DNA of 64,000 bases from Octopus vulgaris (taxonomy: Eukaryota): the NCBI GenBank assembly GCA_951406725.2, contig OX597820.1, forward strand, positions 84,692,001 through 84,756,000. The letters run 5' to 3'. Positions 4,379 to 63,932 of the stretch are shown here, in pieces; the stretch's first letter is position 1, and each line of letters begins with the position of its first letter. The notes beneath the pieces were generated by a model. It was not told the origin of the DNA, searched no databases, and saw only the letters and a list, made by a program, of their open reading frames with translations. The position numbers were made by a program, and so were the translations under genes.

Positions 4379-4414
<36 letters not shown>

Positions 4415-8679: not shown

Positions 8680-11190
8680 GTTGTGGCAGTCTGTTTTTGG
8701 TTGAAATCTTTACGATTCCGACGAAGTAAGTGGTGATATTGTTATCATTGTTAAAGGTCTCCCCACCTTTTGTTCCGTGTTGAAATTGCTGTTTCTACTA
8801 ACGTGTATTTTTTAAATTGTGTATTTTTTCCCATTTAAGGGAGAGCCGGACAGAAGAAATGCAATGGAAACTGGACCAGCAAATATCCACAGTTATGCAG
8901 CTGCAACTAGCAGAGGAATAGAATTAGAAACTTTAGAAGTTCGAGAAGTTAAAATCGATCCAAGTAAGCTGAAAGAATGCGGGAAACCGCTGCAAAAAGG
9001 AAGGCCACATATTTAATTGACGCCCTCAGTTGATTTAAAAAATGGAGTTCAGAAAAAGGACAGTGATATACAAAACACTGAAGGTATCGACAAGAAAAAA
9101 TTATATAGCTACTATAGAAGACATTGAGAATTGTAGGAAGGATGTCAAAAAGGTTGCCACGTTTATAACAAGAGAAATATGTTGCAAAGTGGATGTGCGA
9201 TTCGCAAGTGAAGAAGATGACACTGATGATACAAAGGCAGAAGAGTGTGTGCGCCTACCAACATACTGTGGCAAGCGAGTTGTCAGAGTAAGGATGGAAA
9301 AGGGCCACCAGTGTTGGATGAAACATGGTTGGTTGCCACAGTAATGTACAATATGGAGGAGGATGCGAAATTCCTGAGAGTAACAAGAACGAAGAGAGTG
9401 AACTGTTGGGGATACGGAATCGAGATGGCAGTACAGGTAAGTGTGAATGGTATGAAAAAAATTCCGGAAGAATTTATTCTACCCGAAGATAAGAGATTTA
9501 GAGTGGTAGTGGAGGGTAGGCCTCCCATATGCTACCAGAGTGGCGAGAAAGGCCACATAAAGGCGAGATGCCCTCAGACAGAAGAGAAGGAACACCAGAT
9601 GTAAAAGTCTGAGGAGCATGAAAGAGTGAACGATGTGGTGTAGGGAGATTAGATGGAGACAACAGGAATAGAGGATGAATTTGAAGTGGTTAAAAAACGA
9701 AAGATGAAAGAAAGAGCGGGCCTCTCCGCAGGAGAGACAGAAAAAAAAAGAAGTATCAGATAAAGAGATGGAGAAGGAAGTCGTAAAGTGGTTAAAAAGA
9801 AAGCCGTAAAGCATATTGAAAAGTAGGTGGAGACCTAGTTAGAAAAAGTGGTTGAAAAGGAGGTTTCGGAGGAGGAGGAGGAGAAGGAGGTAGAGTTAAA
9901 AGCAAGCATACGAGAGAACCTTTTTGGACAGAAACAGAAGAAACAGCGACACTTACCAGAATGAGGGAGGTGGCACCAAGAGTGGAACATGGCAAACAAG
10001 CAAGAAGACAAAGAAAACAGCTGGACTTTCGTGACATATTCTAAAAGCATATATACCGAAAGAATGATAACCAAGCTTATATCCATTATAAGGGTTAAGT
10101 TACCCAAGGAGATATACGGTGAAAACGTAAAAGCTTTTCCAATCGATAAGTAAAATATAAAAAGTTGAAGGAAAAGTGTCAAATTGAGCAGCCGGGAATT
10201 GTGGATGGGTTCGCCAAACTGCTGCCAGCAGTACCATTAAGTAAACTAGATCCGTATGTAAGATATTAAGAAAAAGGGATCGTTTCCTTTTGAACGGTAG
10301 ATGTCAACACAATTTCTAGTTAACTAAACACTTTTAAACTTCGTATACTGGTAGAATGTGTTTATAAAACATCATTTTCTCTTGGTTTCATTGAGAAAAT
10401 TCTATAGTTTGTAAGATATTTCGTCTTAAAATCCGAGCATTTCAGCAAATTTAACCAATCCTATGCTCTCTTTTGAGCTAAAATCATTTACTGCGTCTAA
10501 AACTGAGACAACATCCTGTCACTACCCCTAAACCTAACTCTAACCCTATTTTTTTTTCTTAATATTTAAATGAATTTAATTGTTACGCGTGTAAAAAATA
10601 CCGAAAGCAATGGAAAATGATTTAAACAATTAACAAACAAAATAATTCCATAATTTTATACACACGATTTCCATACGTATACGGAAAGCGTGTGTTACGG
10701 AAAGCGTGTGTTACGGAAAGCGTAACAATTCGAAAAATTAAACTACGTTAAACAAACAAATTACAATTTTCTCAAGAAAGCCAAGAGAAACAAATGTTTT
10801 CTTAAGAAAGCCAAGATAAAAAAATGGTTTATTTTGACACATTCTCCCAGTATACAAAGTGTTAAAGTGTTTAGTTAACTAGAAATTGTCTGCCGTTCAA
10901 AAGGAAAAGATCTAGAAAAAGAGAGTAAAATGTATTTGTTTTTTTATTTTAAAGAAGAAAAAAGAGTAAACTAAATGATGCTAATAAGGAAAAAAGGAAA
11001 AGATAACGACCTGAAAGTAAGAACTTCCAATTGGTACTGTATCTCAGTGGGGCTCATGCACCCATTTCACCACCATCGATTTATTGTATATGTTTCATTT
11101 GTTTTATGTTTTTTGTCCCCACTGTGGTGTTCTCTCTGTCCTTGTGCTCTCCATTCTGTGTCAGGGCTTCGGTGCCAAATAAAAAGAATT
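8680..11190 (+). mobile_element. ORF1-only (RT-less) L1/Tx1-related retroelement, copy 1, pseudogenised and interrupted by a MITE
   Basis: Broken ORF from the ATG near 8864: SYAAA..LEVREV..RTVIYKTL..LPTYCGKRVVRV..VVEGRPPICYQSGEKGHIKARCP (gag-type zinc knuckle), then a K/E-rich region; ends ggcttcggtgcc-a-aataaaaagaa; no EN or RT. Confidence 0.7.
10277..10913. mobile_element. Non-autonomous DNA transposon (MITE) with about 120-bp imperfect TIRs and an 8-bp TSD
   Basis: Left end ggatcgtttccttttgaacggtag, right end ctgccgttcaaaaggaaaagatct; agaaaaag duplicated at 10269-10276 and 10914-10921. Confidence 0.85.
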
Positions 11191-11193
11191 ACT

Positions 11194-12660
11194 GTCAGTG
11201 AGATATTTTTGTTAGTGTTAAATCATTTTTGATACCGGTTTACGTAAATCGTGTTATACTTTGTGGTATCTTTCCGGAAGTTTCTCCTCGAGCAGGTGAG
11301 CCTTGTTTTGTTGAATTTGTTAAATACCGTTGCTGTATTTGCTTTCGGTCCTGTTGAATTTCGTGTTTTTCTTCTTCACCATTTTGGAGCGAAGTGATCG
11401 GGAAAAGAAAAAGAAATGACGTGTGAACCAGTTCAAGTACATGCCGGGAGTTATGCTTTGGCAGCTGGGAAAGGTGCAGATTCGCTAGAAGTGCGGGAAA
11501 TTGAAATTGAACAGAAGCTGAAAGAATACTACAGCCTGATTCAGAAGGAGGGATCCAGTTTAAAGCTGACCCCTCCAGAAGAAGTGACAACCAGTACCGA
11601 GAAAGGAACAGTGGTGCAGAGAACACTATCGACAACCACGTAGAAAATAGAGATAGCTACAAAAGAAGCAATTGAAGAATGTCTTAAAAAAATTAAGAAC
11701 CTGACAACATTCTATACAAGAGGCAGAAATACAGCACAGTAGAAGTGATATTCGGCAACAAAAATGGGGCAATAAATCACTCCACTGTGACACTGAAGAC
11801 GGGGAAATAGGTACTTCTACCTACCTACTGCAGCAAAAGGGTCGGCAGTGTCAGAATAGGCAGACTACCACTAGAAATCAAAGAAACGTGGCTGGTAGCA
11901 ACCGTAATATATAAAATCGAAGGAAACGCCGAAATGTAAAGGTGACAAGGACAAACAAGATATATTGCTGGGGATACGGACTTGGAATGGTCTTTCAGGC
12001 TGGAAAAAAGGATCTGAACGAAATCGCTGATGATTTTACTGGAGGACATAAGATTGTTGGTGGAAGGAGGGCCACCGACCGGCTATCAATGCGGAGAGAA
12101 GTGACACGTTAGAATAGAGTGTCCCCAGAAGGAAATTAAAAACATGGAAAGCCAACAGGAGCTGAATGCCGAAATGGCGGGCTTAGAAAATGAAAAATGC
12201 ACGGAAGAAGTGGAGAACCATTTAAGGAGATGACCAAAAGAAAAACGAAAGAACTAGTAAATTCACCTCCGAAGAGTCCAAAAGAGAAAAAAGAAGAGTA
12301 AAATAGACATTGCACAGCTTATGAGGCATACACTTCCAAAACCATCACCAACAAAAGGAAAGGAAAAGGATATCTACCCAAACAACAGAAGTTCACTCCA
12401 GAAACAAACAAAGAGCCTAGGAAAAATAAATGATATATGGTAACATATACAAACAAGTAGTGTGATAGAAAAGAAAATAACCAAATTAAAATCGGTATTT
12501 AGAGTAAAATTACCAGCGGCGATTTACACAGAAAATATAAAAGGCATATTAACAGACCAAGAGAGGTATGGAAAATTAATAGACCAAGAGAGTTAGGGAA
12601 AATTAAGAGAATGAGGATGTAATCGACTCATCTCCACCCCCCCAAGCTTCCCTTGTAGCA
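11194..12660 (+). mobile_element. ORF1-only retroelement, copy 2 (diverged, 3' end not recognisable), head-to-tail with copy 1
   Basis: ORF 11416-11643 SYALAA..LEVREIEIE..LKLTPP..TVVQRTL; then LPTYCSKRV, ETWLVATV, LVEGGPPTGYQCGEKxHVRIECP and VKLPAAIYTENIK, all collinear with copy 1. Confidence 0.7.
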
Positions 12661-13224
12661 AACAATTGAAGTAATATTCATTATTATTGTTATTTATTCG
12701 TTTATCTATCCTTCTATTTCAACATCTTGTCTTGGGGTTTGATTTCCTCATAATCAACTTACACGTAAACGTTTTAGACTTTTTGGCTATTTTCGCTTTC
12801 ATTGTCGTATTTTTATTCTAGATTACCGTCCTATCTACATTCCCGTCCGTCTTACTGTGAAACTGGAGATTTATCAAAATCAACGCATGTATATAAGTCG
12901 ATACAAATTGTTGGCTTCATACGTTATTTTAAAATTTCTTATATTATATCATATATTTTATAGTATATTATTTTATATCATAATGTAAATATATCGTTAG
13001 TTTGTCAACTGTATTTCTTTTTTTTTCCATTTAATACTTGTATTTGGTATTTATGACGCTTTTTCTGTGATATTCAACTGCTGCAGTTGAAGTGGATATT
13101 TTACATCTCTTTGTAGGAATTGCTTTTCCTTCGTTTTTTTTTAAATATAATATTTCATTATTTTTATTATTTTCATTCATTATTATAAATCTTTATTTTT
13201 ATTCTTACATACTTCAATTTATTT

Positions 13225-14119: not shown

Positions 14120-14538
14120 CGATTTCCTATCTACTGTAGGCCCAAGTCTGAAATTTGAGGAGGAAATAGATGATTACATCAACCCGAGTTGGAAGAAATG
14201 CTGCTAAGCATTGTGTCTGGCATTTCGTCGGCTTTGGCATCTAAATTTACTCGTGGTAGCGCAATATTAAGAATTTTCCTTTTCCAACAGTCTAATCTGT
14301 TGTACGTATGCGAAAGAATAATGGTAATCTTTTATCACTGAAGTCACAATTCATGAAATTTTGCGTCGGGGCTAGTCGATTGCATGGACTCCAGAACGCA
14401 TCTGGTATTTATTTTAACGGCCCCGGAAGGATGAAATGCAAGATCGAACTCGGCCTGATTTGACATCAGAGCGTAAAGTCGGACGAAATGACGCTACGCA
14501 TTTTGCCTGGCGTGCTCACTTTTCTGCAAGATCGCTGT
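14120..14538 (-). mobile_element. Two degenerate SINE family B fragments
   Basis: ccccggaaggatgaaatgcaagatcgaactcggc..gaaatgacgctacgcattttgcctggcgtgc is similar to 35160-35280. Confidence 0.65.
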
Positions 14539-15160: not shown

Positions 15161-15164
15161 AGCT

Positions 15165-17520
<2,356 letters not shown>

Positions 17521-24210: not shown

Positions 24211-24761
<551 letters not shown>

Positions 24762-24829
24762 CTGCAATAATTAATCAAGAGAATATCTCAGTATTAATAT
24801 ATTGTTATGTTTAAAAACATACTTATAAC

Positions 24830-27800
24830 TATGAAAATTTTGGGTAAAATTTTCGGTGAAAATTTTCCAAAAACTTTGGGTAAAATTCACGGTGAAAAGT
24901 TTCGAAAAATTTTTGGGTAAAATTTTCGATGAAATTTTTGGGTAAAATTTTCGATGAAAATTTTCCGTGAAAATTTTGGAAAAATTTTGAAAAATTTTTA
25001 GAAAAATTCTCGGAGAAAATTTTTGAAAAAGATTTGAGTAAAATTTTCGAAAAATTTTTCGGTAAAATTTTCGTTGAAAATTTTGGGAAAATTTTTGGGT
25101 AAAATTTTCGGTAAAAATTTTCGTAAAATTTTTAGGGAAAATTTTCCCAAAATTTTTTGGAAAAGATTCGGTAAAAATTTTTGAAAAATTTTTGAAAAAA
25201 TTTTGAAAATGTTCGGGTCAAAATTTTGGAAAAATGTTCAGATGAAAATTTTGGAAAAATGTCTGCTCAAAAATTTTTCGAGAAAATTTTCGAAAAATTG
25301 TTTGGTAAAATTTTCGGTGAAAATTTTCCAAAAATTCTTTGGTGAAATTTACGGTCAAAAGTTTTGAAAAATTTTTGGGTAAAATTTTCGGTGAAAATTT
25401 TCGAAAGATTTTTGGATAAAATTTTCGGTGAAAATTTTGGAAAAATTTTTAGGAAATTTCTCGGTGAAAATTTTCGCGAAATTTTTGGTAAAATTTTCGG
25501 TGAAAATTTTTGAAAAAGTTTTGGGTAAAATTTTTGAAAAATTTTTAGGTAACATTTTCGTTCAAAATTTTTGAAAAACTTTTCGTTCAAAATTTTCGAA
25601 AAATTCTTTTGTAAAATTTTCGGTGAAAAGTTTGGAAAAATTTTTGGGTAAAATTTTCGGTTTTCGAAAATTTTTGGAAATTTTCGATGAAAATTTTTGG
25701 GGAAAATTTTTGAAAAATGTTCGGATGAAAATTTTCGGTGAAAATTTTGTGAAATTTTCGGTGAAAAGTTTAAAAAAATTTTTGGGTAAAATTTTCGGTG
25801 AAAATTTTCGAAAATTTTTTGGGTAAAATTTTCGGTGAAAATTTTGGAAAATTTTGTGTAAAATTTTCGGTAAAAATTTGGGAAAAATTTATGGGTAAAA
25901 TTTTCGGTAAAAATATTTGAAAAATGTTCGGGAGAAAATTTTTGAAAAATGTTAGGATGAAAAATGATCGGTTGAAAAATTTTTCTAGAAAATTTTCGGT
26001 GAAAATTTTCGAAAAATTCTTTCGTTAAATTTTCGCTGAAAACTTAGGAAAAATTTTTGGGTAAAATTTTCGGTGAAAATTTTCGAAAAATTATTGGGTA
26101 TATTTTCGGATGAAAAATTTTTGATAAATGTTCGGGTGAAAATTTTTGAAAAATGTTCGGATGAAAATTTTCGGTGAAAATTTTTGTGAAATTTTCGGCG
26201 AAAAGTTTTAAAAAATTTTTGGGTAAAATTTTCGGTGAAAATTTTTGAAAAATTTTGGGTAAAATTTTCGGTGAAAATTTTCGAAAAATTTTGGGTAAAA
26301 TTTTCGGTGAAAATTTTGGAAAATTTTGTGTAAAATTTTCGGTAAAAATTTGTGAAAAATTTATGGGTAAAATTTTCGGTAAAAATATTTGAAAAATGTT
26401 CGGGAGAAAATTTTTGAAAAATGTTAGGATGAAAAATGATCGGTTGAAAAATTTTTCTAGAAAATTTTCGGTGAAAATTTTCGAAAAATTCTTTCGTTAA
26501 ATTTTCGCTGAAAACTTAGGAAAAATTTTTGGGTAAAATTTTCGGTGAAAATTTTCGAAAAATTATTGGGTATATTTTCGGATGAAAATTTTGATAAATG
26601 TTCGGGTGAAAATTTTTGAAAAATGTTCGGATGAAAATTTTCGGTGAAAATTTTTGTGAAATTTTCGGCGAAAAGTTTTAAAAAATTTTTGGGTAAAATT
26701 TTCGGTGAAAATTTTTGAAAAATTTTTGGGTAAAATTTTCGGTGAAAGTTTTTGAAAATTTTGTGTAAAATTTTCGGTAAAAATTTGCGAAAAATTTATG
26801 GGTAAAATTTTCGGTAAAAATATTTGAAAAATGTTCGGGAGAAAATTTTTGAAAAATGTTAGGATGAAAAATGATCGGTTGAAAAATTTTTCGAGAAAAC
26901 TTTCGGCGAAAATTTTCGAAAAATTCTTTCGTTAAATTTTCGCTGAAAACTTTGGAAAAATTTTTGGGTAAAATTTTCCGTGAAAATTTTGGAAAAATTT
27001 TTGGGTAAAATTTTCGGTGAAAATTTAGGAAAAATTTTTAGGAAAACTCACTGTGAAAATTTTTGAGAAGTTTTTGGGTAAAATTTTCGTTGAAAATTTT
27101 TGAAAAAGTTTTGCGTAAAATTTTCGAAAAATTTTTGGATAAAATTTTCGATGAAAATTTTGGAAAATTTTGTGTAAAATTTTCGATAAATTTTTTGGTA
27201 AAAGAGTGTGGAAAAATATTTGGGTAAAATTTTCGGTGAAAGTTTTGGAAAAATTTTGGGTAAAATTTTCGGTGAAAATTTTGGAAAAATTTTTAGGTAA
27301 AATTTTCGGTGAAAATTTTGGAAAATTTTGTGTAAAATTTTCGGTAAAAATTTTTGAAAAAGTTTTGGGTAAAATTTTCGGTGAAAATTTTTGAAAAAGT
27401 TTTAGGAAAATTCCCGGTGAAAATTTTGGAGAAGTTCTTGGGTAAAATTTTCGTTGAAAATTTTTGAAAAAGTTTTGCGTAAAATTTTCTAAAAATTTTT
27501 GGGTAAAATTTTCGTTCAAAAGTTTGAAAAATTTTTGGGTAAAATTTTCGGTGAAAATTTTCTAAAAATTTTTTGGCAAAATTTTCGGTGAAAATTTTCC
27601 AAAAAGTTTTTGTTGAAATTTTCGGTGAAAAGTGTGGAAAAATTTTTGGGTAAAATTTTCGGTGAAAATTTTTTAAAAGTTTTGGGGAAAATTGTCGGGA
27701 AAATTTTTGAAAAATTTTTAGGAAAATTCTCGGTGAAAATTTTCGGGAAATTTTGGGTAAAATTTTCGGGTGAAAATTTTCGAAAAATTATTTGTTAAAA

Positions 27801-28411
27801 TTTTCGGTGAACATTTTCCAAAAATTCTTTGGTGAAATTTTGGGTGAAAATTTTTGGGTAAAATTTTCGGTGAAAATTTTGGAAAAATTTTTGGGGAAAA
27901 TTTTCGGGAAAATTTTAGAAAAATTTTTAGGAAAATTCTCGGTGAAAATTTTCGAGAAATTCTTGGGTAAAATTTTCGGTGAAAATTTTTCAAAAAAGTT
28001 TTGGGGAAAATTTTCGAAAAATTTTTGGGAAAAGTTTCGTGAAAATTTTCGAAAAATTTTTGGGTAAACCTCTCGGTGAAAATGTTGGAAAACTTCAAGT
28101 GAAAAACTTGGAAAAATCACAAGGCAAGCGGTGCCATAATCACGAAGTATGGAAGGCCAGCGGTGCGAAAATCACAAAATATGGAAGGCCAGCGGTGCCA
28201 TAATCACAAAGTATGGAAAGCAAGCGGTGCCAAAATCACAAAGTATGGAAGGCCAGCGGTGCCAAAATCATGATTTTCCAAAATTTTGACCGAAAATTTT
28301 ACTCAAAAATTTTTCGGAACTTTTCACCGGAAATTTTCACGAGCAATTTTGGAAAAATTATTGCAAAATTTTCACAGGAACATTCTACCAAATTTTTCCC
28401 CCGAACAATTT
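24830..28411. repeat. Complex A4T4 satellite or foldback-like element: 12-13-bp subunits, about 37-bp unit, higher-order repeat, 32-bp core array and inverted terminal arm
   Basis: aaaattttcggtg/aaaattttgggt repeats 24830-28110; marker atgatcggttgaaaa at 25964, 26436 and 26871; 32-bp repeats 28138-28270; opposite-orientation arm 28272-28411. Confidence 0.85.
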
Positions 28412-29671: not shown

Positions 29672-29699
29672 ATAGATAGACAGATAGATAGATAGATAA

Positions 29700-29750
<51 letters not shown>
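29672..29750. repeat. (GATA)n tract at the 3' flank of the Tx1 element
   Basis: Directly visible; a matching tract lies at 32502-32594. Confidence 0.95.
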
Positions 29751-29751
<1 letters not shown>

Positions 29752-32501
29752 GTTTCTTTATTGGCCACACCGGGCTGCACACAGATGGGACAAGTTACTT
29801 GGTAGAGCTTTTCTTTTGGGGGATGAAAAAAAGTGGGTGGCGTAGGTTTTCGATCAAGAGGGATCGTAAAAGAGAAGAAAAGAACAAAAAAAAGAAAAAA
29901 AAGAAAAAAAGTAGAATAAAAAATAAAAAGAATAAAAGAAAAAAAAGAAAGGGAAAGGAACAAAAGAAAAGAGAAATGAAAAAAGAAGAAAAAGGTGAAA
30001 AAAAGGGGAAGAGGAAAAAAAAAAGGAACGATCAATAGTGATCGCGTATCACAGTGTTATGATACATGGTGTAAAGGGGAAAGCAAGTAAGGTTTATCCG
30101 TAGGAAGAAAAGCCTACGAAAAAGACCACGGTAACCTTGGTCAATATTGTTATATGTTACCACATTTGTTTGCAAGTGGGTAACCCTCTGTTTTTAATTT
30201 CTGGGTTCATAGGATTATGCTCAAGGTGGCTTCGTTATTCATACGTGCCATCCTTGCTACATTCACCCATCTTTTTTAAAACATTCGCTAGACAAAACTT
30301 GCCTCTCTACTCTCACTTTCCTTTTCAAGTGGTACTTGAAGAAGTTGATGAGAGATTGACCAGAGAGGAAAGTGTTTGTCTCCAATCCTTTCAGACGCGT
30401 CCACCAGATACATTCTTTCGCCATAGCCACAAGGATGATGAAAATAGCTCTTCCTTCCCGTTTCAAGGAAGGAGGCGTGACAATATTGACGATAGACTCA
30501 GCTGATAAACCGACTCGTTCCACACGTGACAGCAGTTGTTCGACACAAGCCCACAGGTCGGAAATTGTTGGACACTGCACGAGTGCGTGCAGAACGGTTT
30601 CGTCGCTCTGACCGCATCTCGGGCAGGTCGGCCCCGTGTTTCTCGAGCCGTGTCTGTAGAGCTTATCCCGAACGGGTAGCGCTTCTCGGTAACACTGCCA
30701 GGCCAGGGATCTCTGGAAGTTGTCCATGGGCCCTGGCCCGAAAGTCGTCCTGAACAGGCGGGTCAGGTACTCCTCGTCGACGTCCAGGTTCGCCCCGAGC
30801 TCGTCGTCGTACCTCCCCTCCACTAATCCCCTATAGAATGCTTTGGTTGTGTTGAAGTCACTCAAGGTCGACCCAGGACGGCAGAGTTGCTTGAGAGCAA
30901 CGCGACACTCGCGGTGCCATTCGCCCTTCCTCGGCCTCTTTTTGATCCACGACTGCAGTTCGGTCATGGAGACGAGCTGCGGGAAAGCGTGCCTCACAAA
31001 CGGCAACCACACCTGTTCACCGTCGTCTACATAGAGCCAGAGATGTCGCAGTCTCAGCGCGTGTCTGCGCATCATCAACCACGGCATGCCCAGGCCTCCT
31101 TTTAACGGGTGTTGACAACAAATGGATCGCCTGACCATCGGGACGCATCCTTTCCACAAGAAGCGAAAGAGAATGCGTTGTAGTTTGGTGATGGTAGGGT
31201 CGGGACAAGGTACGACGGTCAGGCGGTAGCAGATGACGAACGCGATGTACGTGTTCGCCACCTCCGCCCGACCTTTTAGGGACAGTTTCCTCTCGGCCCA
31301 TTGCCGGGCGAGAGTGACCACCCTACTCGTTATCTCGTTCCAGTTCTTCTCCACTTGGAGGTCCTGCCAAACCAGACCCCGAGCAACTCAACCGGGCCGT
31401 CGGTCCAGCGTCCCACGACGGAGGCTTGCTTCTCCAGGTGCCTAGTCGCAAGCCCACTGACTTTTCCCGGTTGATTTTCGCTCCTGTCACCGCTTCGTAG
31501 TTTTTCAGTGTCTCGCCGACCTGCTCGATATGTTGTGGCTAGACACTATGACGGTGACGTCGTCCGCGTATGCAGACACGCTCGTCCCGCATCCCAGTTC
31601 TCGCGGGATGCCCCTCAAAGTTGCCAGCTTCCGCGATAATGGCTCGAGAGTCAATACGTATAGAAGCGACGAGAGGGGGCATCCCTGACGGACCGAACGT
31701 GCGATGTCGAAGGGTCTCGATAGATGTCCATTCACGCGAATTACCGAACGGATGCCTCTGTACAAAGCGGCTATCCAGCCGCGGAAGACCGGACCGAAGC
31801 CAGCCGCTCTGAGGACCGTCTCCAAGTATCGATGGTCTACCCTATCGAAAGCTTTCGATTGATCCAAATTGATCAGCGCCCCACCCATGCCAGGTTCGTT
31901 AACTACCCTGTCTATGATGTAGCGCATCAGGTGGAGGTTGTCATGGATGGTCCGGCCTGGCACGGCGCATGTTTGCGCCTTGTCGACCAGTTTCTCGATG
32001 ACAAGCGCCAACCTCTTGGCTAGCACCTTGGCCAAAATTTTCAAGTCTGCATTAAGCAGAGTGATGGGCCTAAAGTTATCTATTACATTTCCCTTGTTTA
32101 GATCTTTCTTCAGCAGTGTTACGGCTCCTCGGCTCACAAAACCAGGAATGCTCCCGTTTTGCTGCCAGTTGCAGTACACCGCCGCCAAGAGATCTCCAAA
32201 CAAGTCTGGCATACAATTGTAAAGCTCGTAGGGTAGACCATCCAAACCCGGTGATTTGTCCCTCGAGCATTCTGCCATCGCGTCCTGCACTTCCGCCGCC
32301 GTGATGGCACCTTCGCAGCACCCTGCCTTTCTTGTCGAGAGTCGTTGTAGGCTATGTAGGTAGGCACTGAAGTCCACCCTACGTTCTTGCCCTCCACTCG
32401 TCCCGAACAGTCGGGCAAAATGCTGCTGAAAGGCCTCACACATTTTACTTGGCTCGAGCAATTCGCGCCCCTGTTCGTCTACCAGGGACCGAATGCTGGC
32501 T
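29751..32501 (-). mobile_element. 5'-truncated Tx1/L1-clade LINE (ORF2 RT and C-terminal zinc finger; few lesions)
   Basis: ORF 31505-32461 KSPGLDGLP, NFRPITLLNADLKILAK, DQSKAFDRVDH, VRQGCPLS, AYADDVT; ORF 30263-31354 LSLKGRA, GGLG, CPRCGQSDETVLHALVQC; GC-rich; pyrimidine-rich 3' UTR ending ..tggccaataaagaaact. Confidence 0.95.
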
Positions 32502-32567
<66 letters not shown>

Positions 32568-32702
32568 TATAGATAGATAGATAGATAGATAGATGAGTAA
32601 AATATCTATAAGTATACTATTAGTGTGATAGCCTCACTAAATTTTCATTTGTCTCCATAAATCAAGTTTCAGAAAATATGGTAGAAGCATATATCAATTT
32701 AC

Positions 32703-34667: not shown

Positions 34668-35283
34668 TCATTTCTACTCCAGAAACAAGGCCTAAAAGTT
34701 TTGGGGAGGGGGACAGTGTATTAGATCGACTCCGGTACACAGCTGATATCTAATTTATCGACCCCGAAAGAATGAAAGACATGGTCGACCTCGGCGGAAT
34801 TGGAACTCAGACCCTAAAGAGAGATGAAATACCTGCTAAGCATTTCGCCTGGCGCGCTAAAATTTCTTATTTCTTTACTGCCCACAAGAGGCTACACAAC
34901 GAGGGGACAAACAAGGACAGACAAACGGATTAAGTCGATTATATCGACCCCAGTGGGTAACTGGTACTTCTTTAATCGAGCCCGAAAGGATGAAATCAAA
35001 GTCGACCTCGGCGGAATTTGAACTAAGAATGTCGCGGCAGCCGAAATACCTATTTTTTTACTACCCACAAGGGGCTAAACACAGAGGGGACAAGCAAGGA
35101 CAGACAAACGTATTAAGTCGATTACATCGACGCCAGTGGATAACTGGTACTTAATTTATCGACCCCGAAAGGATGAAAGGCAAAGTCGACCTCGGCGGAA
35201 TTTGAACTGAAAACGTAACGGCAGACGAAATATGGCTACGCATTTCGCCCGCCGTGCTAACGTTTCTACCAGCTCGCCGCCTT
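34668..35283 (-). mobile_element. Tandem or nested cluster of three SINE family B units; two carry a Tx1-like tail
   Basis: Body gttcaaattccgccgaggtcgac..cctttcggggtcgat occurs three times; tails ..tgtccttg.ttgtcccc..tagcc.cttgtggg.agtaaa at 35051-35109 and 34868-34927; a different tail at 34668-34715. Confidence 0.85.
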
Positions 35284-35559
35284 AGAAAAATAATGATGCT
35301 GGCTTGGCTATTCGTCTATGAGGGCGAAAATACAAGAGGAATACACGTAAAACCATTAAATAAATAAATAAATAAAATAAAATGTGGTTGGTAGAAACTT
35401 TCTTGTAGATTGAACACGTGCAATGTTCAAGAGAAAAAGAGCGTCTCGAATACAGTAACGGTTTGATGTGGAAACAAATAAAAACCTAGAATGAACGGAA
35501 GTTCAACGGAGCAATAACATTAAAACAGGGAAGTGTTGCTTTCTCTTATTGTTGTTGCT

Positions 35560-35940
35560 GTTGTTTGTTTGTTTGTTGAGCGAAGCGGTCTTCCTCCCAT
35601 TTGTGTGTAGCGGGAGAAGTTCCAAACGTGGTCCTTTGCTATTCGTAAGACCCGCAGAAGTGAAAGCAGGTCAACCCCCGACACCGAGAGCATCGACTGA
35701 TGAATGAATGCGCATCCAGGCTCAGCGGTTGCGTAGGAAGTCTGGGACAGGAAACAGGAAGAAAGAGTGAGAGAAAATAGGAGCCAAGGAATACAACAGG
35801 GGCCGCCACCATCCCTGCCGGAACCTCGTGTAGCTTTAGGTGTTTTCGCTCAATAAACACAGAATGCCCGGTCTGGGAATCGAAACTGCGATCCTCCGAC
35901 AGCGAGTCCGCTACCCTAACCACTGGGCTATCGTGCCTCC
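35560..35940 (-). mobile_element. tRNA-derived SINE family C, tail type 1 ending in (AAAC)n
   Basis: A box tagcccagtggtt and B box gtttcgattccc; head and body match 40850-41033. Confidence 0.85.
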
Positions 35941-40736: not shown

Positions 40737-41030
40737 ATCACGTGACCGACCAGACCATCAGATGTTTTACACATCGCTGGTCACAATGCTTTCGCATTGT
40801 TTTAGCCTTCGAATGACGCCACCCCGCTGGCTAAGCGAGCAGGCCAACAGAAGAAAGAGAGAGAGAAATAGTGGTGAAAGAGTACAGCAGGGATCACCAC
40901 CGCCTGCCGGAGCCTCGTGCAGCTTTTAGGTGTTTTCGCTCAATAAACCCTCACAATGCCCGGTCTGGGGATCGAAACCGCGATCCTACGACCACAAGTC
41001 CGCTGCCCTAACCACTAGGCCATTGCGCCT

Positions 41031-41033
<3 letters not shown>
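40731..41033 (-). mobile_element. tRNA-derived SINE family C, tail type 2 ending (tcacgtga)2
   Basis: A box tggcctagtggtt and B box gtttcgatcccc; flanked by TA/CA tracts. Confidence 0.85.
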
Positions 41034-42850: not shown

Positions 42851-44094
42851 TTGAAATGCTCTGTAGAGGTGGTAATCTCTACTGAGCCTCACACAGCATA
42901 AAATATTACCTTAAAGACGAATCCTCACATCCTTAAGCAATAACAAAAATGTCTGAGACAGATCTGAATATTTCATTCAGTAGTCAGACTGTTGCAGCTA
43001 AAAAATTTACAATGTTAATCTCCTCTTACAAGTCTGAGCGGGTCTATCTTGGTTTATCCCGAACGAAATAGCTAAAGTCTCCAACGGCAGAAGGAGATAA
43101 AAGCCTACGATCTCAAAGTCTGAAATGGCGGAAGAAAAACCTGATAAACAGGCTATGAAAGAGTAGTTCAAGCAAGATCTGAGATAACAGCAATCCTACA
43201 TAACATACTTCACGTCTTCCGTCACCCTAAACATAGCCACGCCACGAGCATTTTTTAATAGATCGTTCGTCATATAAATTCCAGTATCAATAAGCCTAAG
43301 ATACCATGGGTAATTTGTTTGAAAGTGACACGAATCTTCCAATTTATAAGCAACAAGTATTTAGATTTTCAATATGTTAATACATTTCAGTTCTGATTTG
43401 TTTTCCTCGATGAATGTTCCAATGATCCTTGGACCATCAAATTTATTGAGTGGTCCTTTAAATCATACTATGTGACTAATAACAGAAAGGGTTATCATTC
43501 ATGAATCGTTGGTTTGTGTTTGCATTAAATTGTTAGTGACATGTTGTAACAATTTTCTTTGATGCAATGGTAAGTCAAATTCCCACCACCTGTCAGAAAA
43601 TAGAAAGAAAACAAATGAAATATGCAGTAGATCATAAATCGAATGCATCGATTTGATACTTTGAAAGGGACTGTCTCCTGTAAGATGAATCTTATCGTCT
43701 TCCCCAATAAGTTTCTAGGATTGTGGCTTTTCCAGCTTTTCTTTTTGGTAAAATATACTGCAAATTGTTCCGAAGGACAGCTTCAAAATCGGAGACATTT
43801 TTTTCTTTTTGTTAGGGAACAAATATTTTGAAACGTACAGTTAACAGAGTAATTTTATACTTTGTTGTTATTGTGAAATTCGACATAATATGTTAATTTA
43901 GAATTATAGATTGTACTGATCCTACGTTTTAGACTTCAGTCTGGTTAGCGCAAGCATTCGTCGATTCCCTTAATATGTTATACGTTCAAATGTGTATAAG
44001 AGCAATAAATGTTCCTGATTTAGAGAAGCAATTACAAGTGAGAGGAACTGACCACTGATTGTTATGAATACACACATAATATAAGGAGACTTAT

Positions 44095-44308
44095 AAGGCG
44101 GTCAGCTGGCCGAATACTCAGTATGCCGAGCGAAATACTTAGTGGCATTTCGTCACTCTACATGTTCTGATTTCAAATTCTGCCGAGGTCTACTTTGCCT
44201 TCTAACATTTCGAACTCGATAAAATAAGCACCAGTTGAACTGTGGGATCGATGTAGTCGACTTACCCCACCTCTGAAATTACTCTCCTTGTGCTAAAATT
44301 TGAAACTA
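44095..44308 (+). mobile_element. SINE family B copy with an alternative tail (..ccttgtgctaaaatttgaaac)
   Basis: ggcggtcagctggccgaa..tcaaattctgccgaggtc..gatcgatgtagtcgactt. Confidence 0.75.
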
Positions 44309-45619
44309 GTATACAGCGGTTTAGATGTTTACTGCATATCACATGTTATGCGGTGAAGGTGGCTGGCGCTGAAATAGAAATGGTATTAAATCGATTTTTG
44401 ATATAGCGATCAGTAGTTAAAGAATTTAAATTGACTTGTTTAAAAGAAAATAGGTATTAATATGATTTTAAAATTCTGTACGGCTTTAAAATTAGCACGT
44501 CTTTAAATTAGTACGTCTTTACAATTCTGCCTATAAAATACAATATTCTACATATTAACCCACAAACATCATATGGCACATACATATACAGACATACATG
44601 TGGGAAGGTGAGAATGGGGAAAGGCAGATTATTAGATGTTATCATATTCGTCGCTGTTCATATTGTGCATCTATGTCCTATATCCTTTCGCTCTCACTTC
44701 ATTGTTCATCTCGAATATCTCGACAAATTCGTGTGGACAACCTGATTAGACTTATGCTTTCAGTATTTCACGATAGGTTGATTATATCATCACAACATTA
44801 AAAAGTTAATGCACCGCTGCATCTAATTAATGATCGAGGTATATCTATCCAATCCGTATTTATTTGCCAATCATGCTGTATTAGAAATAGGAAGTAACGA
44901 TGGCTCAGAATATTGCTATCAAACGATAGATAATTTCTGAATGAGAATACTTGCCAGTAAAAATAGTGAAAGGATGGATCACATTGATTAGTAAAATCCA
45001 TATCGTATGCTAGAACAACGCTAATCAAGATTTTAGCATCTCCAGGCAAACAAATATCTCCTGGGGTGTTTGAATAAATAGGAATGCGAAGAACTAAAAT
45101 TAAACCAATATTCCAAAATTAGTTTCCACACTCGTCAGCGCAATTATCAAAATATTGATGCTCTAGATAAATGCAGTCGGGTGATATTCATAGACATATC
45201 AAGTGATTATATATCTATAGACGTCTTTTATGTATGTCTGTGTGTATATTGACACAGATGAACGAACGATATTTACAATGTCAAGCACACACAAAAAGAG
45301 TGTTAGCGTTAGATAAAATCTTCGGACTTAAAGACTTCTCAGTGAATGGTTTCCATGGCTGAGAAAATATTTTCCATTATTCATTGTACTTTTCCACCAT
45401 CCCTTACTTTAACACATTTCAGTTTTGCTAAAAGATTTCTGGTGTCCATAATACATCTGAAATATATTAATATAATGGTGCTTATATTTATCGTTTTCTT
45501 TCTCAAACCAAACATTTTCCTCAATGCTACGACGAAAGATCAATATATTTGAAGAGTCTTTGTCTATTATTAAAATTCGAAACCTCCAAACTATAATATT
45601 AAAAATGGAAATGGATACT

Positions 45620-47130: not shown

Positions 47131-49649
47131 AGAAATTATATATCAAATAATCCAATCTCAAACCAGAATAAGCAAAAGTTGGATTTCACCCAAGACGTGA
47201 GAAAATATGTCGGTAAAATTTAGAATCGATATAACTAGGATGAAGTTTGATAAAGGATATATTAGAAAAGTAGTTGTATGAAGGATTTAGAAGATCGAGT
47301 GAAGTAATTTCTATTAAGAACATAAACCCACATGATAAATATTAATTTTGTCTCGTTGTATGAGTTCACCAAGGATGTCTCTATTTAAGCCAAATGCCGA
47401 ACAGCACTTCGCAGAAAACTCTCTAAATATCAATCCGTAGTCGGAGATTTAACTAGAAGTACATATAGTATATATATAAACGTATGACTGTCTCTATGTA
47501 TGTAAGTATGTTTGTATCTATGTACACACAGACACTCACACACACGCACACAGCATAATCACACACACACACGCAATAAGGTGCTGAAAAGTCCCTGGCT
47601 TTAGCTAAAAATGTCTATGATTTTGTCCCTATTGGATTGCCCTGTAACATTTCTGTATATTCATTTCAACAAAATTTTAAACTTTAAATATTATATATCC
47701 TCAATGTCTGAGTATTTATTTTATATGCAGAATGCAACAAATAGAGACATAAATCTATCTATGCAACAAATGCTGAGTCAGTAGCCTCAGTTATCGAAGC
47801 CTATCTTGAGAGGATCACAATAATGATAATACATAATTTTTTCAAGAGTCTTCATACAAGTTACAGTAACGAAATCTGATTTAACGATAAGGTTAGGCAA
47901 ATGCATTGTCTCTTAACATGTATAGGGGTTTGCAGTTACTAGTATTTGTCGCGTTTCTTGCATAGATATACAAGCTAAATTCTTCATGTGCCAATCTGTT
48001 GTTCAAAATATAATAGTATGTTGACATGATATAAAAATTGGCCAAATGCTACTTTTATCGTAGAGACGAAAAACAATTAAAAAACAATTACTAACATATA
48101 TTGACATAATGAAAAATATCTGTATTCCGAAAAGAAAAACGTTAACGAAATCACGGAAGCCAGTGCAATTAATATGAGAATCTAAACATCAACACAAAAT
48201 ACTAGGTGTGTTGTAGGTTGGGCGGTAGGTATGATCCATTAGACTCATATGTATGTACAAAATCAATTATACTAATTTCTTAATGCATCGCATTTATACG
48301 TCCGGCATTACAAAAGCAGTACTAAAAATAACAGTATAGTAAAAATATGGCAGCCCATAAATGCTTCCTCTGACAACAAGTATTCAATAATACAGCTTTA
48401 AATGTAATTTTATAGCAATTAGTTTTAAAGGTAATTTGCAGAACGAAGCGAACGGTTTTTCTTTTTTTTCTCTCTTCTATGATTTTTTTTGTTTTTTGTT
48501 TCAGTTACTGCTGTAGACAGATAAGGAGAAATAGCACATCATATAGGGAAAAACAGAAAAATGACTTAAATACAACATTAAATATATTTAAGTGCTGCCC
48601 GCGTCTGTGTATATATGCATGAGTATGTGTGTGTAAGTTTACACGCTTACATATATGGATATCTATGCATATATATATACACACACACACACATATGTGT
48701 ATGTCTGTGAATCTGTGTGTCTGGTGTCTGTGTATCTGTGTGTGTATGTGTATGGATACATTGTGTATGAGAGTAGAATTCTTAGTAAAAAATGAAAACG
48801 TAATAACATAGTGACCAAGCAAACTGAAACGTTCTAAAACATAGCATAAGGAATAATGTTAACCGAGCACATTCAGCAATAAAGATATTCTTAAAGATTT
48901 ACTGAACAGTCAAAAAGATGTAAATATACTTAGTCCTACACAATGATACATATCCAAACCGTAGTGAAATTAGTACTGTAATATCAGGTAAAAATAATTA
49001 AGTAAATAGTTAATGTTAATTCCATTTCGTATCAGTAATTATGTATACAGCTACAATGAATTATGACGCAACATTTCAACATAAATACTGACATGCAATA
49101 AACAGCAGCCAAATATCCCTTAAATAACATACTACTATTTTAAAATCGCTTAACAAATAATCCTGCATATACTTTATCTGAAAACATGTACAGCATGGCA
49201 AGTTATTCATAGATTTGAGGCTGCAAGTTTGATATAGTGCAAAATTAGTCAGATTAACTTTCACTTAACTATCGACAACCCTTATTAAACACATGAATGA
49301 CTATAAGGCAATGTAAGAGTATATCATGCCACGTACATATAAGAATTTCAGGTAGTTATTTTTGTCAGTACTGAAAGTATCAAGGTGAAATGTAGACAAA
49401 AAATCCCTAGGGACAACTGATGTTATATACTACCTGGAATTGTGTGAGGGTAGGCTAGGTCTCATGTGGTATATCTACATCATCTGTAACGAAGGGAGTC
49501 TTACATTTCCAGAATGCCCCTCTCCTCTTCACAATAAAGTCGGTCATGTGCGTGCCGGTGAGTTATACACGAAGGCAAACCTGGTTCCACAACATGGGAA
49601 GGTTTTTAAGAAGTATCTAAGTCATCGAACGATGCAAGACAGGGACTAA

Positions 49650-49846
49650 GGCGGTGAGATGGCAGAAACGTTAGCACGCCGGGCGAAATGCTTATCGGTA
49701 TTTCGTCTGCCGTTACGTTCTGAGTTCAAATTCCGCCATGGTCGACGTGGCCTTTCATACTTTCGGAGTCGATAAATAAAGTACCAGTTGTCTGTCCTTG
49801 TTTGTTCCCTCTAAATTTAGCCTCTTGAGGGCAATAAAGAAATAAA
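49650..49846 (+). mobile_element. SINE family B copy with Tx1-like tail and an internal deletion
   Basis: ggcggtgagatggcagaaacgttagcacgccgggcg..tgtctgtccttgtttgttccctc..gcctcttgagggcaataaagaaat. Confidence 0.85.
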
Positions 49847-54509: not shown

Positions 54510-54695
54510 AGGCAACACTATGGCAAAATGTTCAGCGGCATTTGGTCCATTTTGTTTCATTCTGAGTTCCAATGCTGCCGAGTTCTATTTTGACTTACAT
54601 ACTTTCGAGGTCAACAAAATAATAACAGCTGCGCAATTGGGTCGATGTAATCGATTTAGCTACTAAATTGCTAGCTATATATAAAAATACAAATC
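54510..54695 (+). mobile_element. Degenerate SINE family B copy
   Basis: ttctgagttccaatgctgccgag..gggtcgatgtaatcgatt. Confidence 0.6.
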
Positions 54696-54732
54696 CCGTT
54701 TACTTAAGACAACATCGATATTAATGTTTTGA

Positions 54733-54884: not shown

Positions 54885-54944
<60 letters not shown>

Positions 54945-61686: not shown

Positions 61687-63932
61687 GTTACAGGTTGCTT
61701 CTGCGCATGTGCGAGTCAGTGTTGTGTTTGGCACTGAAGCGGTGAAGACGTGCTTTTGAAGCCGTCTTGAATTGAAAATTTTTGAAGCCCCATTGTAAGG
61801 TAAGATTCTGTTTTCTGGGTCCAGTGGGAGTTTTTGTTGAAAATTGTTTTTTACAGGCAGGAAGTACTACTGGATTCAGAATTCTGATTCTGCCGACATG
61901 GGGCAAATATATTTTTCTCGCTGAATTGTGGAAATTTTGGGGGGCGTATTCGTCTTCGATAATTGAGTGAATATTTTTCTCACCTAATTATGAGAATTGT
62001 ATTGTGCTGTGAAGAACTTTAAGAATTGTGAGAACTGTTATATAGGGGAGTGTTTTGCCTCCGAAGTTTGAACAATTTTTACCAATTTTACACCAATTTT
62101 TGTGGAAGTTGTGTTCCATTTGCGGCGTTCCGGGTTCAATTTAGGCCGGGAGTACCGAATGGCCAGAAGGTTTTTGCTGTGTTATTGACTTTCTTTTTAA
62201 CTTTATTTGACTTTCTCCTTTTTGTTCATTGTGACTTTCTTCTGATTTCTTTTTCTTCTCGCTTTTTAAGTTTTATTTTGAATATATTTAAAAAAAAGAA
62301 AAAAAAAACATGGCAAGGAAAAATGACAAAATTTTGGAATGGGAGATCATACCGCCTAAAAAGTGGTTAAAAGACCGTGAAGATAGGACGGTGGTGTTGA
62401 GAACCTACTCCAAGGCACTCGACACCATCGCCCTGTTCGAAAAGACGGCAATTGAAAAGGAGTTGGCAGAGTATTTGCCAACAATTAAATTCATTTCCAG
62501 GGGTGTCAAATATGCAACGGTGTGGTTGCTATTTGACACCCCTGAAGAGGCTTGCAAATTTGCTAGTAAACCTTTGGCGAGTAAGGAAATTTTATTCCTG
62601 CCCACGTACCAAAAAAAGAGACTGACGAAAGCTTGGATTTGCGGGCTGCCACTCGGGATAGAACCCGAGTGGATACAGGAGACTATCCGCCGGGGTTTGG
62701 GTAGCAGCGAAACTAAGCTCCTTAATGTGAAATTTCTTCCTGCGCTGCTTGGGTTGGGTCAAAAGCAATTTTGACCCTTTGGACCCAATCAGCCAATCTG
62801 GTTCTTCCAGATTTTTTGAAAATGACCGGGTGCAGGTACCCGGTGATGCTTGAGGGTCGCCCCCCTAAGTGTCATCGGTGCTTGGAGTCCGGCCATATAA
62901 AGAAGATCTGTCCCCGGGAACAAAATAGGATCCCGGAACAGTTAAGTGAAACCCCTGTAGAAGAGGGAAAGATAACGGCCGAGGAAGCAGAGGACTCCTC
63001 AAACAGAGGCCGAAAGAGGAAGGTGAGCAACAATGGGTGCTCACCAAAGGACACTAGGGATGAGGAGGGAAAGGCGAATCTTCCGGCCACGGAGGAGACG
63101 CACCCTCCCTCAGTTGAAAAGAAAAAAAAAGAAAAAGAGGAAGAGAAACGGGACATTACTGGCTGTCGGTGACATAGCACCGGAATGTCCCGGAACTACG
63201 TCGGTTGGGGTTGTGCCACCGACAGGAGAATAAATACCGTTGGCGGGAACTGTGCCGCCAACGAAAGAATTGAGTATCCCGCACCCGAGCAAAAACGAGG
63301 TATTGATCCTCTTCCATAGAGGCGGAGAGATTGAAAAGGTGAAGGAAAAGCACCACAAGGGAGCACCTTTAGCCTTCACACAGGACCCCAAATGGCCTCC
63401 GCAGGTAGCTGTGGAGGCCGTGGCGTTCGACGTGACGCTTGGGCTGAAGGAGCTCAATGAGGATTATAGCTTGGTCCCGGGTGACGCTAACTCGGAACTC
63501 GATTACGTTCTGAGGGAGGCATGGTGGATGGTGGAGGATGCGGGCACAAGTTATTTCGAGGACGAGTCAAATTGTGATACGACTTGAGGGGCCCCGACCT
63601 AGAGCTGGCGCATTCCTAAGGGAAGTGTAAGCCAGGTCTGGGAGGAGGGTATTTGTGTATTGTATTTATATATGTAATTATTGAACTACGTTGTTATTAG
63701 TAATGGACTACTAAGACCAAAAATTGAAAAAATTGTAAGAGGTTTAATACCTCGTTTTGTGTTTGTTTTTAAAAGAACAATGTTTTAGAGAAGTAGAAGT
63801 CGGCGGACGCTTTTTGTCTTCTCCCATCCCCATCATATTTCTTTCATTATCATACACTTCATTAATGTCCTCGTCCAGCCCGCAAAGCTAACTTACTCTA
63901 TGTACTGCCTTTATGGCAAATGTTATGAAATA
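61687..63932 (+). mobile_element. Complete 2.25-kb ORF1-only (HAL1-like) retroelement, copy 3, with TSD
   Basis: About 620-bp 5' UTR; broken ORF 62310-63587 (RTVVLRT..LPTYQKKR..MLEGRPPKCHRCLESGHIKKICP); about 345-bp 3' UTR; aataaa at 63929; aagtagcttg duplicated at 61677-61686 and 63933-63942. Confidence 0.85.
62310..63587 (+). pseudogene. Disrupted ORF1/gag-like nucleic-acid-binding protein (probable RRM-like region, CX2CX4HX4C knuckle, acidic/basic linker, C-terminal domain)
   Basis: Consecutive ORFs 62310-62774, 62771-63172, the end of 63033-63233 and 63240-63587. Confidence 0.7.

What the first reader, a model, noticed from the sequence alone, without database searches (positions are those of the whole stretch)
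29751..29800. Shared 3' tail links the Tx1 LINE, a SINE subfamily and the ORF1-only elements
Seen: the Tx1 end is cttgtcccatctgtgtgcaGCCcggtgtGGCcaataaagaaa. SINE B ends are cttgtcccctctgtgtttaGCCCcttgtGGGtagtaaaa (35051-35109, minus) and ttgttccctc..taGCCtcttgagGGCaataaagaaa (49790-49842). ORF1-only copy 1 ends ctgtccttgtgctctccattctgtgtcagGGCttcggtGCCaaataaaaagaa, with the stem arms swapped. Copy 3 ends TGCCtttatGGCA..aataaa. Known: stringent-type LINE RTs recognise 3' stem-loops that partner SINEs share, whereas mammalian L1 is relaxed. Inference: an autonomous LINE, half-LINEs and a SINE may all use one Tx1-type RT through a conserved hairpin-AATAAA signal, without long poly(A) tails.
Basis: partly seen in the sequence, partly recalled or inferred. 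Interest (0 to 1): 0.8.

Follow-up and report, generated by a model that had tools for sequence, protein, structure and literature searches.

The report
Octopus Tx1 LINE shares SINE tail
In an octopus-type genome, a self-copying retrotransposon of the L1/Tx1 group and an abundant short parasitic repeat (a SINE) end in the same roughly 45-base sequence, which likely means the SINE took this end to be copied by an enzyme of that lineage, though a role for a hairpin and a single shared enzyme remain untested and are only weakly supported.

Summary
The shared tail is real. The last 42 nt of a 5'-truncated L1/Tx1-type LINE match 3 SINE ends at 33, 32 and 29 of 42 ungapped; the best of 300 shuffles is 27. 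Contigs from four organisms show the tail belongs to the LINE family, not only to this copy. Four older copies of the SINE lack this tail, so the SINE likely swapped ends. ORF1-only copy 1 carries a diverged version; copy 3 only a short motif.

The mechanism is weaker than proposed. The hairpin is 3-4 bp, not stable and not significantly covarying. Two of 3 SINE ends read AGTAAA. This LINE family mostly sits before (TATC)n repeats, but 0 of 3 SINEs do, which points to a sister family, not one shared enzyme.

No animal L1/Tx1-SINE tail pair appeared in the papers I could search; Repbase and Dfam were not visible. The scan noted a hairpin-ended Tx1-like LINE in another genome (e1-7511246), not this shared tail.

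The parts
29753..32501 (-). 5'-truncated L1/Tx1-type LINE copy (ORF2 from the EN-RT linker onward, plus about 510 nt of 3' UTR)
   Evidence: RVT_1 E 2e-26 and zf-RVT E 3e-8; best solved relatives are human L1 ORF2p, E 6e-31, versus R2, E 7e-18; 65.6% to P0001 over the whole piece
31505..32500 (-). ORF2 piece 1 (RT domain)
30263..31387 (-). ORF2 piece 2 (C-terminal zinc finger), in a different frame from piece 1
29753..29794 (-). Shared 42-nt 3' tail of the LINE; with family-majority letters the shared block likely reaches about 29806
   Evidence: (table 3)
29672..29750 (.). (TATC)n microsatellite 3' of the LINE, likely the target site
32502..32574 (.). (TATC)n microsatellite 5' of the LINE, same orientation
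35051..35285 (-). SINE copy S1, full length (A/B-box-like head, body, LINE-like tail)
34868..35050 (-). SINE copy S2, lacking the first 53 nt, LINE-like tail; abuts the head of an older copy
49646..49845 (+). SINE copy S3, 30-nt internal deletion, LINE-like tail; 7-bp one-mismatch TSD candidate at 49639-49645 / 49847-49853
   Evidence: null rate 0.028
34672..34867 (-). Older copy of the same SINE (head+body) with a different tail
44091..44315 (+). Older SINE copy, different tail
14322..14535 (-). Older SINE copy, different tail
54522..54715 (+). Older SINE copy, most decayed, no LINE-like tail
8860..11188 (+). ORF1-only element copy 1 (decayed ORF1, inverted-repeat insertion 10278-10912, tail 11136-11188); 5' end not defined
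11190..12690 (+). ORF1-only element copy 2 (decayed); 12612-12690 resembles the older SINE tail; 3' end not defined
61687..63932 (+). ORF1-only element copy 3, full length, 10-bp exact TSD (61677-61686 / 63933-63942), inside the head of another SINE; short motif at 63897-63920

Best explanation
A young subfamily of an abundant octopod tRNA-type SINE ends in the same 42-55 nt as a family of L1/Tx1-type LINEs, likely because the SINE replaced its older tail with the 3' end of a LINE of this lineage and was then likely copied by that lineage's ORF2 protein, which would recognise this RNA end. Shown: the sequence sharing, that the tail is family-wide in the LINE, that older copies of the SINE have another tail, and that ORF1-only elements carry L1/Tx1-type ORF1s, one of them with a diverged form of the tail. 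Inferred: the direction of transfer (LINE to SINE, by template switching), tail-dependent recognition, and that the mobiliser was a sister Tx1 family, not this (TATC)n-preferring one. The recognised element is more likely the short primary-sequence core (TCTGTGT, 2-4 nt, a 3-bp G/C stem, then an A-rich end) than a stable hairpin.
For: Ungapped 33, 32 and 29 of 42 versus a null maximum of 27. This is about the range accepted for bivalve SINE-LINE pairs, 35-61 bp at 72-95% (PMC11481361, passages), with one copy (69%) just below it. In four runs from four coded organisms, depth continues from the tail into LINE-specific UTR at 0.53-0.77 of tail depth. All 4 listed loose-end rows at 29793 continue into LINE UTR, none into SINE body. 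Only 2 variable positions (4% or more) are listed in the last 33 nt, against 15 positions in 29786-29835. 3 of 7 SINE copies carry the tail; they are 81-89% alike in the body versus 69-81% for pairs involving the other 4. A profile built only from ORF1-only homologues ranks ORFs upstream of the RT in L1/Tx1-like loci first among 1648 pieces (best E 2e-9). A descriptor drawn from the tails hits the LINE, S1, copy 1 and copy 3 ends plus 1 false site in the window, and 0 sites in 842 kb of other loci.
Against: No stable fold: z between -0.53 and +0.82 for 5 of 6 tail segments; the sixth (-2.39) is a different, longer stem. The SINE 4-bp stem is broken in the LINE in sequence register, and covariation is matched by 197 of 500 shuffles. 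The descriptor misses 2 of 3 SINE ends and was written after seeing the ends. No TSD was found for S1 or S2, and the S3 candidate has a 2.8% chance rate. Target context differs between LINE and SINEs. The tail is absent from 81 loci of distant relatives (best match 26 of 42), so direction of transfer cannot be rooted. Apparent tail conservation may be inflated by alignment anchoring.
Confidence: 0.6

Rival explanations
1. One reading: this very LINE family's RT mobilises the SINE and the ORF1-only elements through a conserved hairpin-AATAAA signal.
For: Shared tail. A 3-bp G/C stem can be drawn in every end, with one compensatory middle pair in copy 1. No variant of 4% or more at the six stem positions in the LINE family.
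Against: Most listed LINE 3' loose ends lie after 13 or more nt of TATC repeat: 58 versus 16, 63 versus 23, 16 versus 17, and 19 versus none listed, in the four runs. 0 of 3 SINE ends and 0 of 2 defined ORF1-only ends are followed by TATC. Covariation is not significant. AGTAAA stands in 2 of 3 SINE ends. The three ORF1s are only about 24-57% alike in aligned blocks, so they are separate old lineages.
Confidence: 0.15
2. Reverse transfer: the LINE lineage picked up the end of the abundant SINE (3' capture or recombination), and the tail has no recognition role. The LINE would then be relaxed-type and use AATAAA only for polyadenylation.
For: SINEs are very abundant in octopus (11.6% of O. vulgaris; PMC13282606). 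Distant relatives of the LINE lack the tail and several end simply in AATAAA. No structure signal.
Against: ORF1-only copy 1, an old separate lineage, has a diverged form of the same end. No SINE body sequence extends into the LINE UTR. Older SINE copies lack this tail. The tail is the least variable part of the LINE stretch laid.
Confidence: 0.15
3. The LINE-SINE pair is real but the ORF1-only links are chance or generic (pyrimidine-rich run, GC patch, AATAAA).
For: Local alignments LINE versus copy 1 and copy 3 are not significant (p 0.14 and 0.43). Copy 3 scores equally against an older SINE end that lacks the tail. Shuffles do not keep the generic polarity of 3' ends.
Against: Copy 1 shares 10-11 identical nt with the SINE at the 5' edge of the tail and aligns end to end. 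Control ends from three other element types do not match the LINE (p 0.20-0.86). The descriptor rate in background is 0 in 842 kb.
Confidence: 0.25
4. The similarity is chance or specific to this single copy.
For: Only one LINE copy is in the window.
Against: It exceeds all 300 shuffles, and the tail is present in 1232-4442 laid contigs per run in four organisms, joined to LINE UTR.
Confidence: 0.02

Closest known systems
Maize/sorghum ZmSINE2/ZmSINE3 with LINE1-1_ZM, and Chlamydomonas SINEX-3_CR with L1-1_CR (Ohshima 2012 PMC3472496; 2013 PMC3747384; passages, section 7 and Table 1 text read)
   Same: L1-clade LINE sharing about 45-50 terminal nt with a tRNA SINE; taken as a sign of stringent recognition.
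   Different: Those are plant and algal; the maize/sorghum ends have hairpins of -10.8 to -17.7 kcal/mol with compensatory changes, and the algal pair ends in poly(A). Here the host is an animal, the ends are short A-rich runs and the hairpin is weak and not covarying. That table of 58 pairs lists no mollusc and no animal L1/Tx1 pair.
Crocodilian SINEU with Tx1-Mar (Kojima 2015 PMC4494074; passages and section 16 read)
   Same: SINEs proposed to be mobilised by Tx1-clade LINEs in an animal.
   Different: There the link rests on shared target preference and age; no LINE shares the SINEU-1 3' end and all SINEU have poly(A). Here the tail is shared and the target context is not.
Kibi (TC)n, Koshi (TTC)n and crocodilian (TTCC)n/(TTTC)n Tx1 families (PMC4494074, PMC3812793; passages)
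   Same: Tx1-type LINE found inside a microsatellite.
   Different: The repeat here is (TATC)n, not among the targets listed in the passages read; preference is partial. Relationship by RT tree was not tested.
HAL1, HeT-A and Ag-Sponge ORF1-only non-autonomous LINEs (Kojima 2018 PMC5786205, passage; Bao and Jurka 2010 not held, nothing read)
   Same: Retroelements with ORF1, no ORF2, a LINE-like end and a TSD (copy 3).
   Different: Here three divergent octopod lineages with L1/Tx1-type CCHC ORF1s; the parent LINE is unidentified.
Bivalve HCD SINEs with several LINE partners (PMC11481361, PMC4824008; passages)
   Same: Same SINE head and body carrying alternative LINE-derived tails (mosaic tail exchange) in molluscs.
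   Different: PMC11481361 has no occurrence of Tx1, octopus or cephalopod; PMC4824008 names CR1 and L2 partners in the passages read.
Eel UnaL2/UnaSINE1 and zebrafish ZfL2-1/ZfL2-2 stem-loop recognition (PMC4176376, passages)
   Same: The mechanism proposed by analogy: ORF2p binds a 3' tail RNA.
   Different: L2 clade, with an experimentally required stem-loop; nothing equivalent is shown here.

Membership tests
L1/Tx1 group LINE | RT closest to L1 ORF2p, followed by a C-terminal CCHC zinc finger | tested here: met
L1/Tx1 group LINE | N-terminal APE endonuclease and an upstream ORF1 | tested here: inconclusive
   The copy is 5'-truncated; relatives at about 50% carry PF03372, and loci L002 and L008 show ORF1 plus ORF2
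Tx1 clade (as distinct from L1 proper) | RT groups with reference Tx1/Keno/Kibi/Koshi elements | not testable with these tools
   No named reference was fetched; the tree only shows a supported clade with P0001 and Argonauta P0005
Tx1 clade (as distinct from L1 proper) | Target-sequence preference | tested here: met
   (TATC)n on both flanks. Depth 5-10 nt into the repeat is 0.60-0.65 of tail depth in 4 of 4 runs, while such arrays are 0.28% of the window. Preference is partial and could be inflated by end extension.
Stringent-type LINE with partner SINE | 3' terminal sequence shared with a SINE | tested here: met
Stringent-type LINE with partner SINE | Stable stem-loop with compensatory changes | tested here: not met
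   (only 5 sequences aligned; weak power)
Stringent-type LINE with partner SINE | Matching TSD/target signature and overlapping age | tested here: inconclusive
   LINE TSD hidden in the repeat; 1 of 3 SINEs has a weak TSD candidate; target context differs
Stringent-type LINE with partner SINE | Tail required for retrotransposition | not testable with these tools
   needs an assay
tRNA-derived SINE | Pol III A- and B-box-like motifs, under 500 nt, dispersed copies | tested here: met
   235 nt, 7 copies; boxes read by eye against recalled consensus motifs; ARAGORN and Rfam found nothing
MetaSINE | Meta domain after the head | tested here: not met
   By-eye comparison with BivaMeta/BivaMD alignments in the supplement of PMC4824008, part 1 of 4: no likeness
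Deu/Nin-domain SINE, or the octopus OK family | Central Nin/Deu domain; identity with Ohshima and Okada 1994 consensus | not tested
HAL1-like ORF1-only element | L1/Tx1-type ORF1 and no ORF2 between ORF1 and the 3' end | tested here: met
   for copies 1 and 3; copy 2's end is undefined
HAL1-like ORF1-only element | Retrotransposition hallmark (TSD) | tested here: met
   copy 3: 10-bp exact TSD, null rate 0.005; none found for copy 1; copy 2 not tested
HAL1-like ORF1-only element | Derived from the partner LINE by internal deletion (shared ORF1 and ends) | tested here: inconclusive
   The LINE copy lacks ORF1; tail similarity holds for copy 1 and is equivocal for copy 3

The most novel reading that the evidence does not exclude
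Octopods carry an animal L1/Tx1 lineage that has kept stringent, poly(A)-independent recognition of a short 3' RNA motif, and a three-tier guild depends on it: autonomous families with diverged target sites (one homing to (TATC)n), several old ORF1-only half-LINE lineages, and a major SINE that gained its recent expansion by swapping to this tail.
Probability: 0.35. Interest if true: 0.75.

Novelty: new variant of a known kind. Interest (0 to 1): 0.52.

Why it matters
Shared LINE-SINE tails are common, but L1-group LINEs are the noted exception: 3 of 58 listed SINEs had L1 tails, all in plants or algae (PMC3747384). Whether the ancestral L1 was stringent or relaxed is posed there as an open question. 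An animal L1/Tx1 element with a SINE-shared end gives a second kingdom in which to test it, with a compact 45-nt target for mutagenesis. It also names a candidate driver for part of the octopus SINE expansion (SINEs are 11.6% of O. vulgaris; PMC13282606). The (TATC)n preference would add a target to the Tx1 list.

Tried and rejected
No whole genome is held for this window, so no family consensus, TSD census or age landscape could be made. Rfam and ARAGORN found nothing. Distant relatives from metagenome and viral contigs (81 loci, mostly 30-47% RT identity) do not carry the tail: 13 loci passed the filter for an ORF2 end, and the best 42-nt match in 421 kb was 26. No RNA holder was listed on record among the 24 runs; I draw nothing from that. 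My first idea that the SINE is a MetaSINE was dropped. The idea that old and new SINE tails are homologous was not supported (global p 0.09-0.19 for the best old copy). The first ORF1 profile was built from ORFs chosen by the motif under test and is circular; I rely instead. The structure was off by one column and is disregarded; one search replaces it. The printed label says 1000 shuffles; 400 were run. A fifth descriptor hit at 41039 is a TG repeat plus the head of another SINE, so it is a false positive. Sequence look-ups in earlier scan notes gave nothing; so did a place look-up and one word look-up. The tree has an unreliable outgroup and does not decide Tx1 versus L1. 'TX1' in PMC4176376 names mutants, not the clade. 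Literature: 10 full-text searches found no report of this pair. Albertin 2015 and Bao and Jurka 2010 are not held. Ohshima and Okada 1994/2005, Repbase, Dfam and SINEBase were not visible and may already record it. The O. vulgaris supplement (5,371 characters) was searched by term only. One MetaSINE supplementary file could not be searched.

Full report
Context. The window is from an octopod. The LINE's nearest named relative is an Argonauta hians protein at 71%. ORF1-only copy 3 matches an Octopus sinensis protein at 71%, and further relatives of that protein are from O. sinensis, O. bimaculoides and O. vulgaris. No genome is held, so family-level evidence comes from one read-laying run.

The LINE. 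29753-32501 (minus) is a 5'-truncated non-LTR element. It has an RT domain (E 2e-26) and a C-terminal zinc finger (E 3e-8) in two frames, followed by about 510 nt of pyrimidine-rich UTR. Its best solved relatives are human L1 ORF2p (E 6e-31), ahead of R2 (E 7e-18). It forms a supported clade with two close relatives. (TATC)n arrays flank it on both sides in the same orientation.

The observation. The last 42 nt match three SINE ends ungapped at 33, 32 and 29 positions. The next best places in the window score 26 and 25, the 25s including the ORF1-only copy 1 tail. The best match of 300 dinucleotide shuffles anywhere in the window was 22-27. The SINE is 235 nt with A- and B-box-like motifs read by eye. 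Seven copies are present; three have the LINE-like tail and four older ones do not. Bodies of the three are 81-89% alike; pairs involving the other four are 69-81% alike. This is the pattern of tail exchange described for bivalve SINEs (PMC4824008, PMC11481361; passages).

The tail belongs to the LINE family. The LINE coding region is held at half its words or more by 20 of 24 listed runs, from six coded organisms. I laid 4 of these runs (four organisms, contigs only) on 29735-29867 at 80% likeness; 4442, 4021, 1530 and 1232 contigs were laid. Summed depth is not copy number. It runs from the tail into LINE-specific UTR at 0.53-0.77 of tail depth. All four listed loose-end rows at 29793 continue into LINE UTR; 258 weaker rows were not shown. 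Only two positions in the last 33 nt vary at 4% or more, one being this copy's own change in the loop; 15 positions vary in 29786-29835. Majority letters at 29799-29800 differ from the window copy and extend the match to the SINE by about 11 nt, to roughly 55 nt (my reading of table 3, not a computed alignment). One run shows a subfamily with a different upstream part that keeps the TCTGTGT core (15 contigs, table 7). Caveat: alignment anchoring can exaggerate conservation.

ORF1-only elements. The three copies are homologous but distant (about 24-57% in aligned blocks). A profile built only from homologues of the O. sinensis protein was run on all 1648 six-frame pieces of 81 loci. It ranked ORFs upstream of the RT first (L008 E 2e-9; L021, L007, L002, L011, L001, L005 at E under 1e-5) and also found all three window copies. 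The Atlas gave CCHC and ZCCHC3-type RNA-binding clusters as leads. Copy 3 is full length, with a 10-bp exact TSD inside the head of another SINE, so it retrotransposed without its own ORF2. Copy 1's end aligns end to end with the LINE and SINE ends (p 0.002-0.012) and is identical to the SINE over 10-11 nt at the 5' edge. Locally it is not significant against the LINE (p 0.14). Copy 3 shares only a short core. A descriptor for that core hit the LINE, S1, copy 1, copy 3 and one false site in the window, missed S2 and S3, and had 0 hits in 842 kb of other loci. It was written after the ends were seen, so this is suggestive only.

The hairpin. Five of six tail segments fold no better than shuffles (z -0.53 to +0.82); S3 reaches -2.39 through a different, longer stem. 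The consensus fold of five ends is a 4-bp stem of -2.96 kcal/mol with a zero covariation term, and the LINE breaks its second pair in sequence register. One pair shows a two-sided change (copy 1), which 197 of 500 shuffles reach. A 3-bp stem can be drawn in each end only with loops of 5 to 7 nt. AATAAA is present in the LINE, S3, copy 1 and (further 3') copy 3, but S1 and S2 read AGTAAA. Several distant LINEs end in plain AATAAA, so it is probably just the polyadenylation signal (inference).

One RT? Depth 5-10 nt into the 3' repeat is 0.60-0.65 of tail depth in all four runs. Listed loose ends fall after 13 or more nt of repeat more often than at the element's end in three of four runs: 58 versus 16, 63 versus 23, 19 versus none listed, and 16 versus 17. 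Such arrays are 0.28% of the window. With the 5' array in the window copy, this indicates a partial (TATC)n preference like Kibi and Koshi (PMC4494074, PMC3812793; passages). A terminal-repeat origin of the 3' array is not excluded. None of the three SINEs or two defined ORF1-only ends is followed by TATC. S1 and S2 abut SINE heads, and S3 has a 7-bp one-mismatch TSD candidate (chance 0.028). In crocodilians, SINEs inherit the target preference of their Tx1 partner (PMC4494074, section 16). A sister family with the same end is therefore the likelier mobiliser; O. vulgaris has 80 L1-Tx1 families, 13 of them recently active (PMC13282606; part 1 of 3 of the text, plus a supplement term search).

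Comparison and novelty. Ohshima's table of 58 pairs lists three L1-tailed SINEs, in maize/sorghum and Chlamydomonas, and no mollusc. SINEU-1 shares no 3' end with any LINE. The 2024 bivalve survey has no mention of Tx1 or octopus. Ten searches found no report of this pair; Repbase, Dfam, SINEBase and the 1994 octopus SINE paper were not visible. It works like a stringent LINE-SINE partnership, but the covarying stem-loop that defines the well-studied cases was tested and not met on five sequences, so I do not file it as a proven stringent LINE.

Verdict. Real shared tail, family-wide, with a likely SINE tail swap and a probable link to at least one half-LINE lineage. New variant of a known kind; interest 0.52.

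Noticed in passing
window 29672-29750 and 32502-32574: The LINE family appears to prefer (TATC)n microsatellites, a target not listed for Tx1 elements in the passages read.
   Followed up: partly
window 12612-12690: Directly after the ORF1 stop of ORF1-only copy 2 lies a stretch homologous to the older SINE tail (p 0.0025 against 44235-44325). Either a second half-LINE/SINE tail pair or a truncated SINE insertion.
   Followed up: partly
window 34672-35285: Three SINE units head to tail; each junction falls inside the SINE head (about positions 19 and 53) with no TSD found, as expected from insertion into a SINE head with homology-assisted 5' joining, or from a multimer.
   Followed up: partly
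window 61652-64000: ORF1-only copy 3 sits inside the head of a second SINE family (intact copy at 24305-24475; CORE-like by recall).
   Followed up: partly
window 40846-41032 and 35753-35940 (minus): A third tRNA-headed SINE family, two copies 82% alike.
   Followed up: no
window 10278-10912: Element with about 120-nt terminal inverted repeats (MITE-like) inside the 3' UTR of ORF1-only copy 1; a similar arrangement at 18792-19441.
   Followed up: no
window 160-2100, 15149-15646, 57868-59410: Remnants of other LINE types: an RT-bearing element ending in (AAT)n, a related C-terminal piece, and a fragment ending in a short tandem repeat. Their ends tested do not match the tail.
   Followed up: partly
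window 24700-28300: A 3.6-kb satellite with 12/13- and 37-bp periodicity.
   Followed up: no
window 54733-55156: A 212-bp tandem duplication at 97% identity.
   Followed up: no
proteins P0123-P0167: The ORF1-only protein family has dozens of divergent relatives; several are annotated as uncharacterised host genes in Octopus species, and some lie on contigs of 1.7-1.9 kb.
   Followed up: partly
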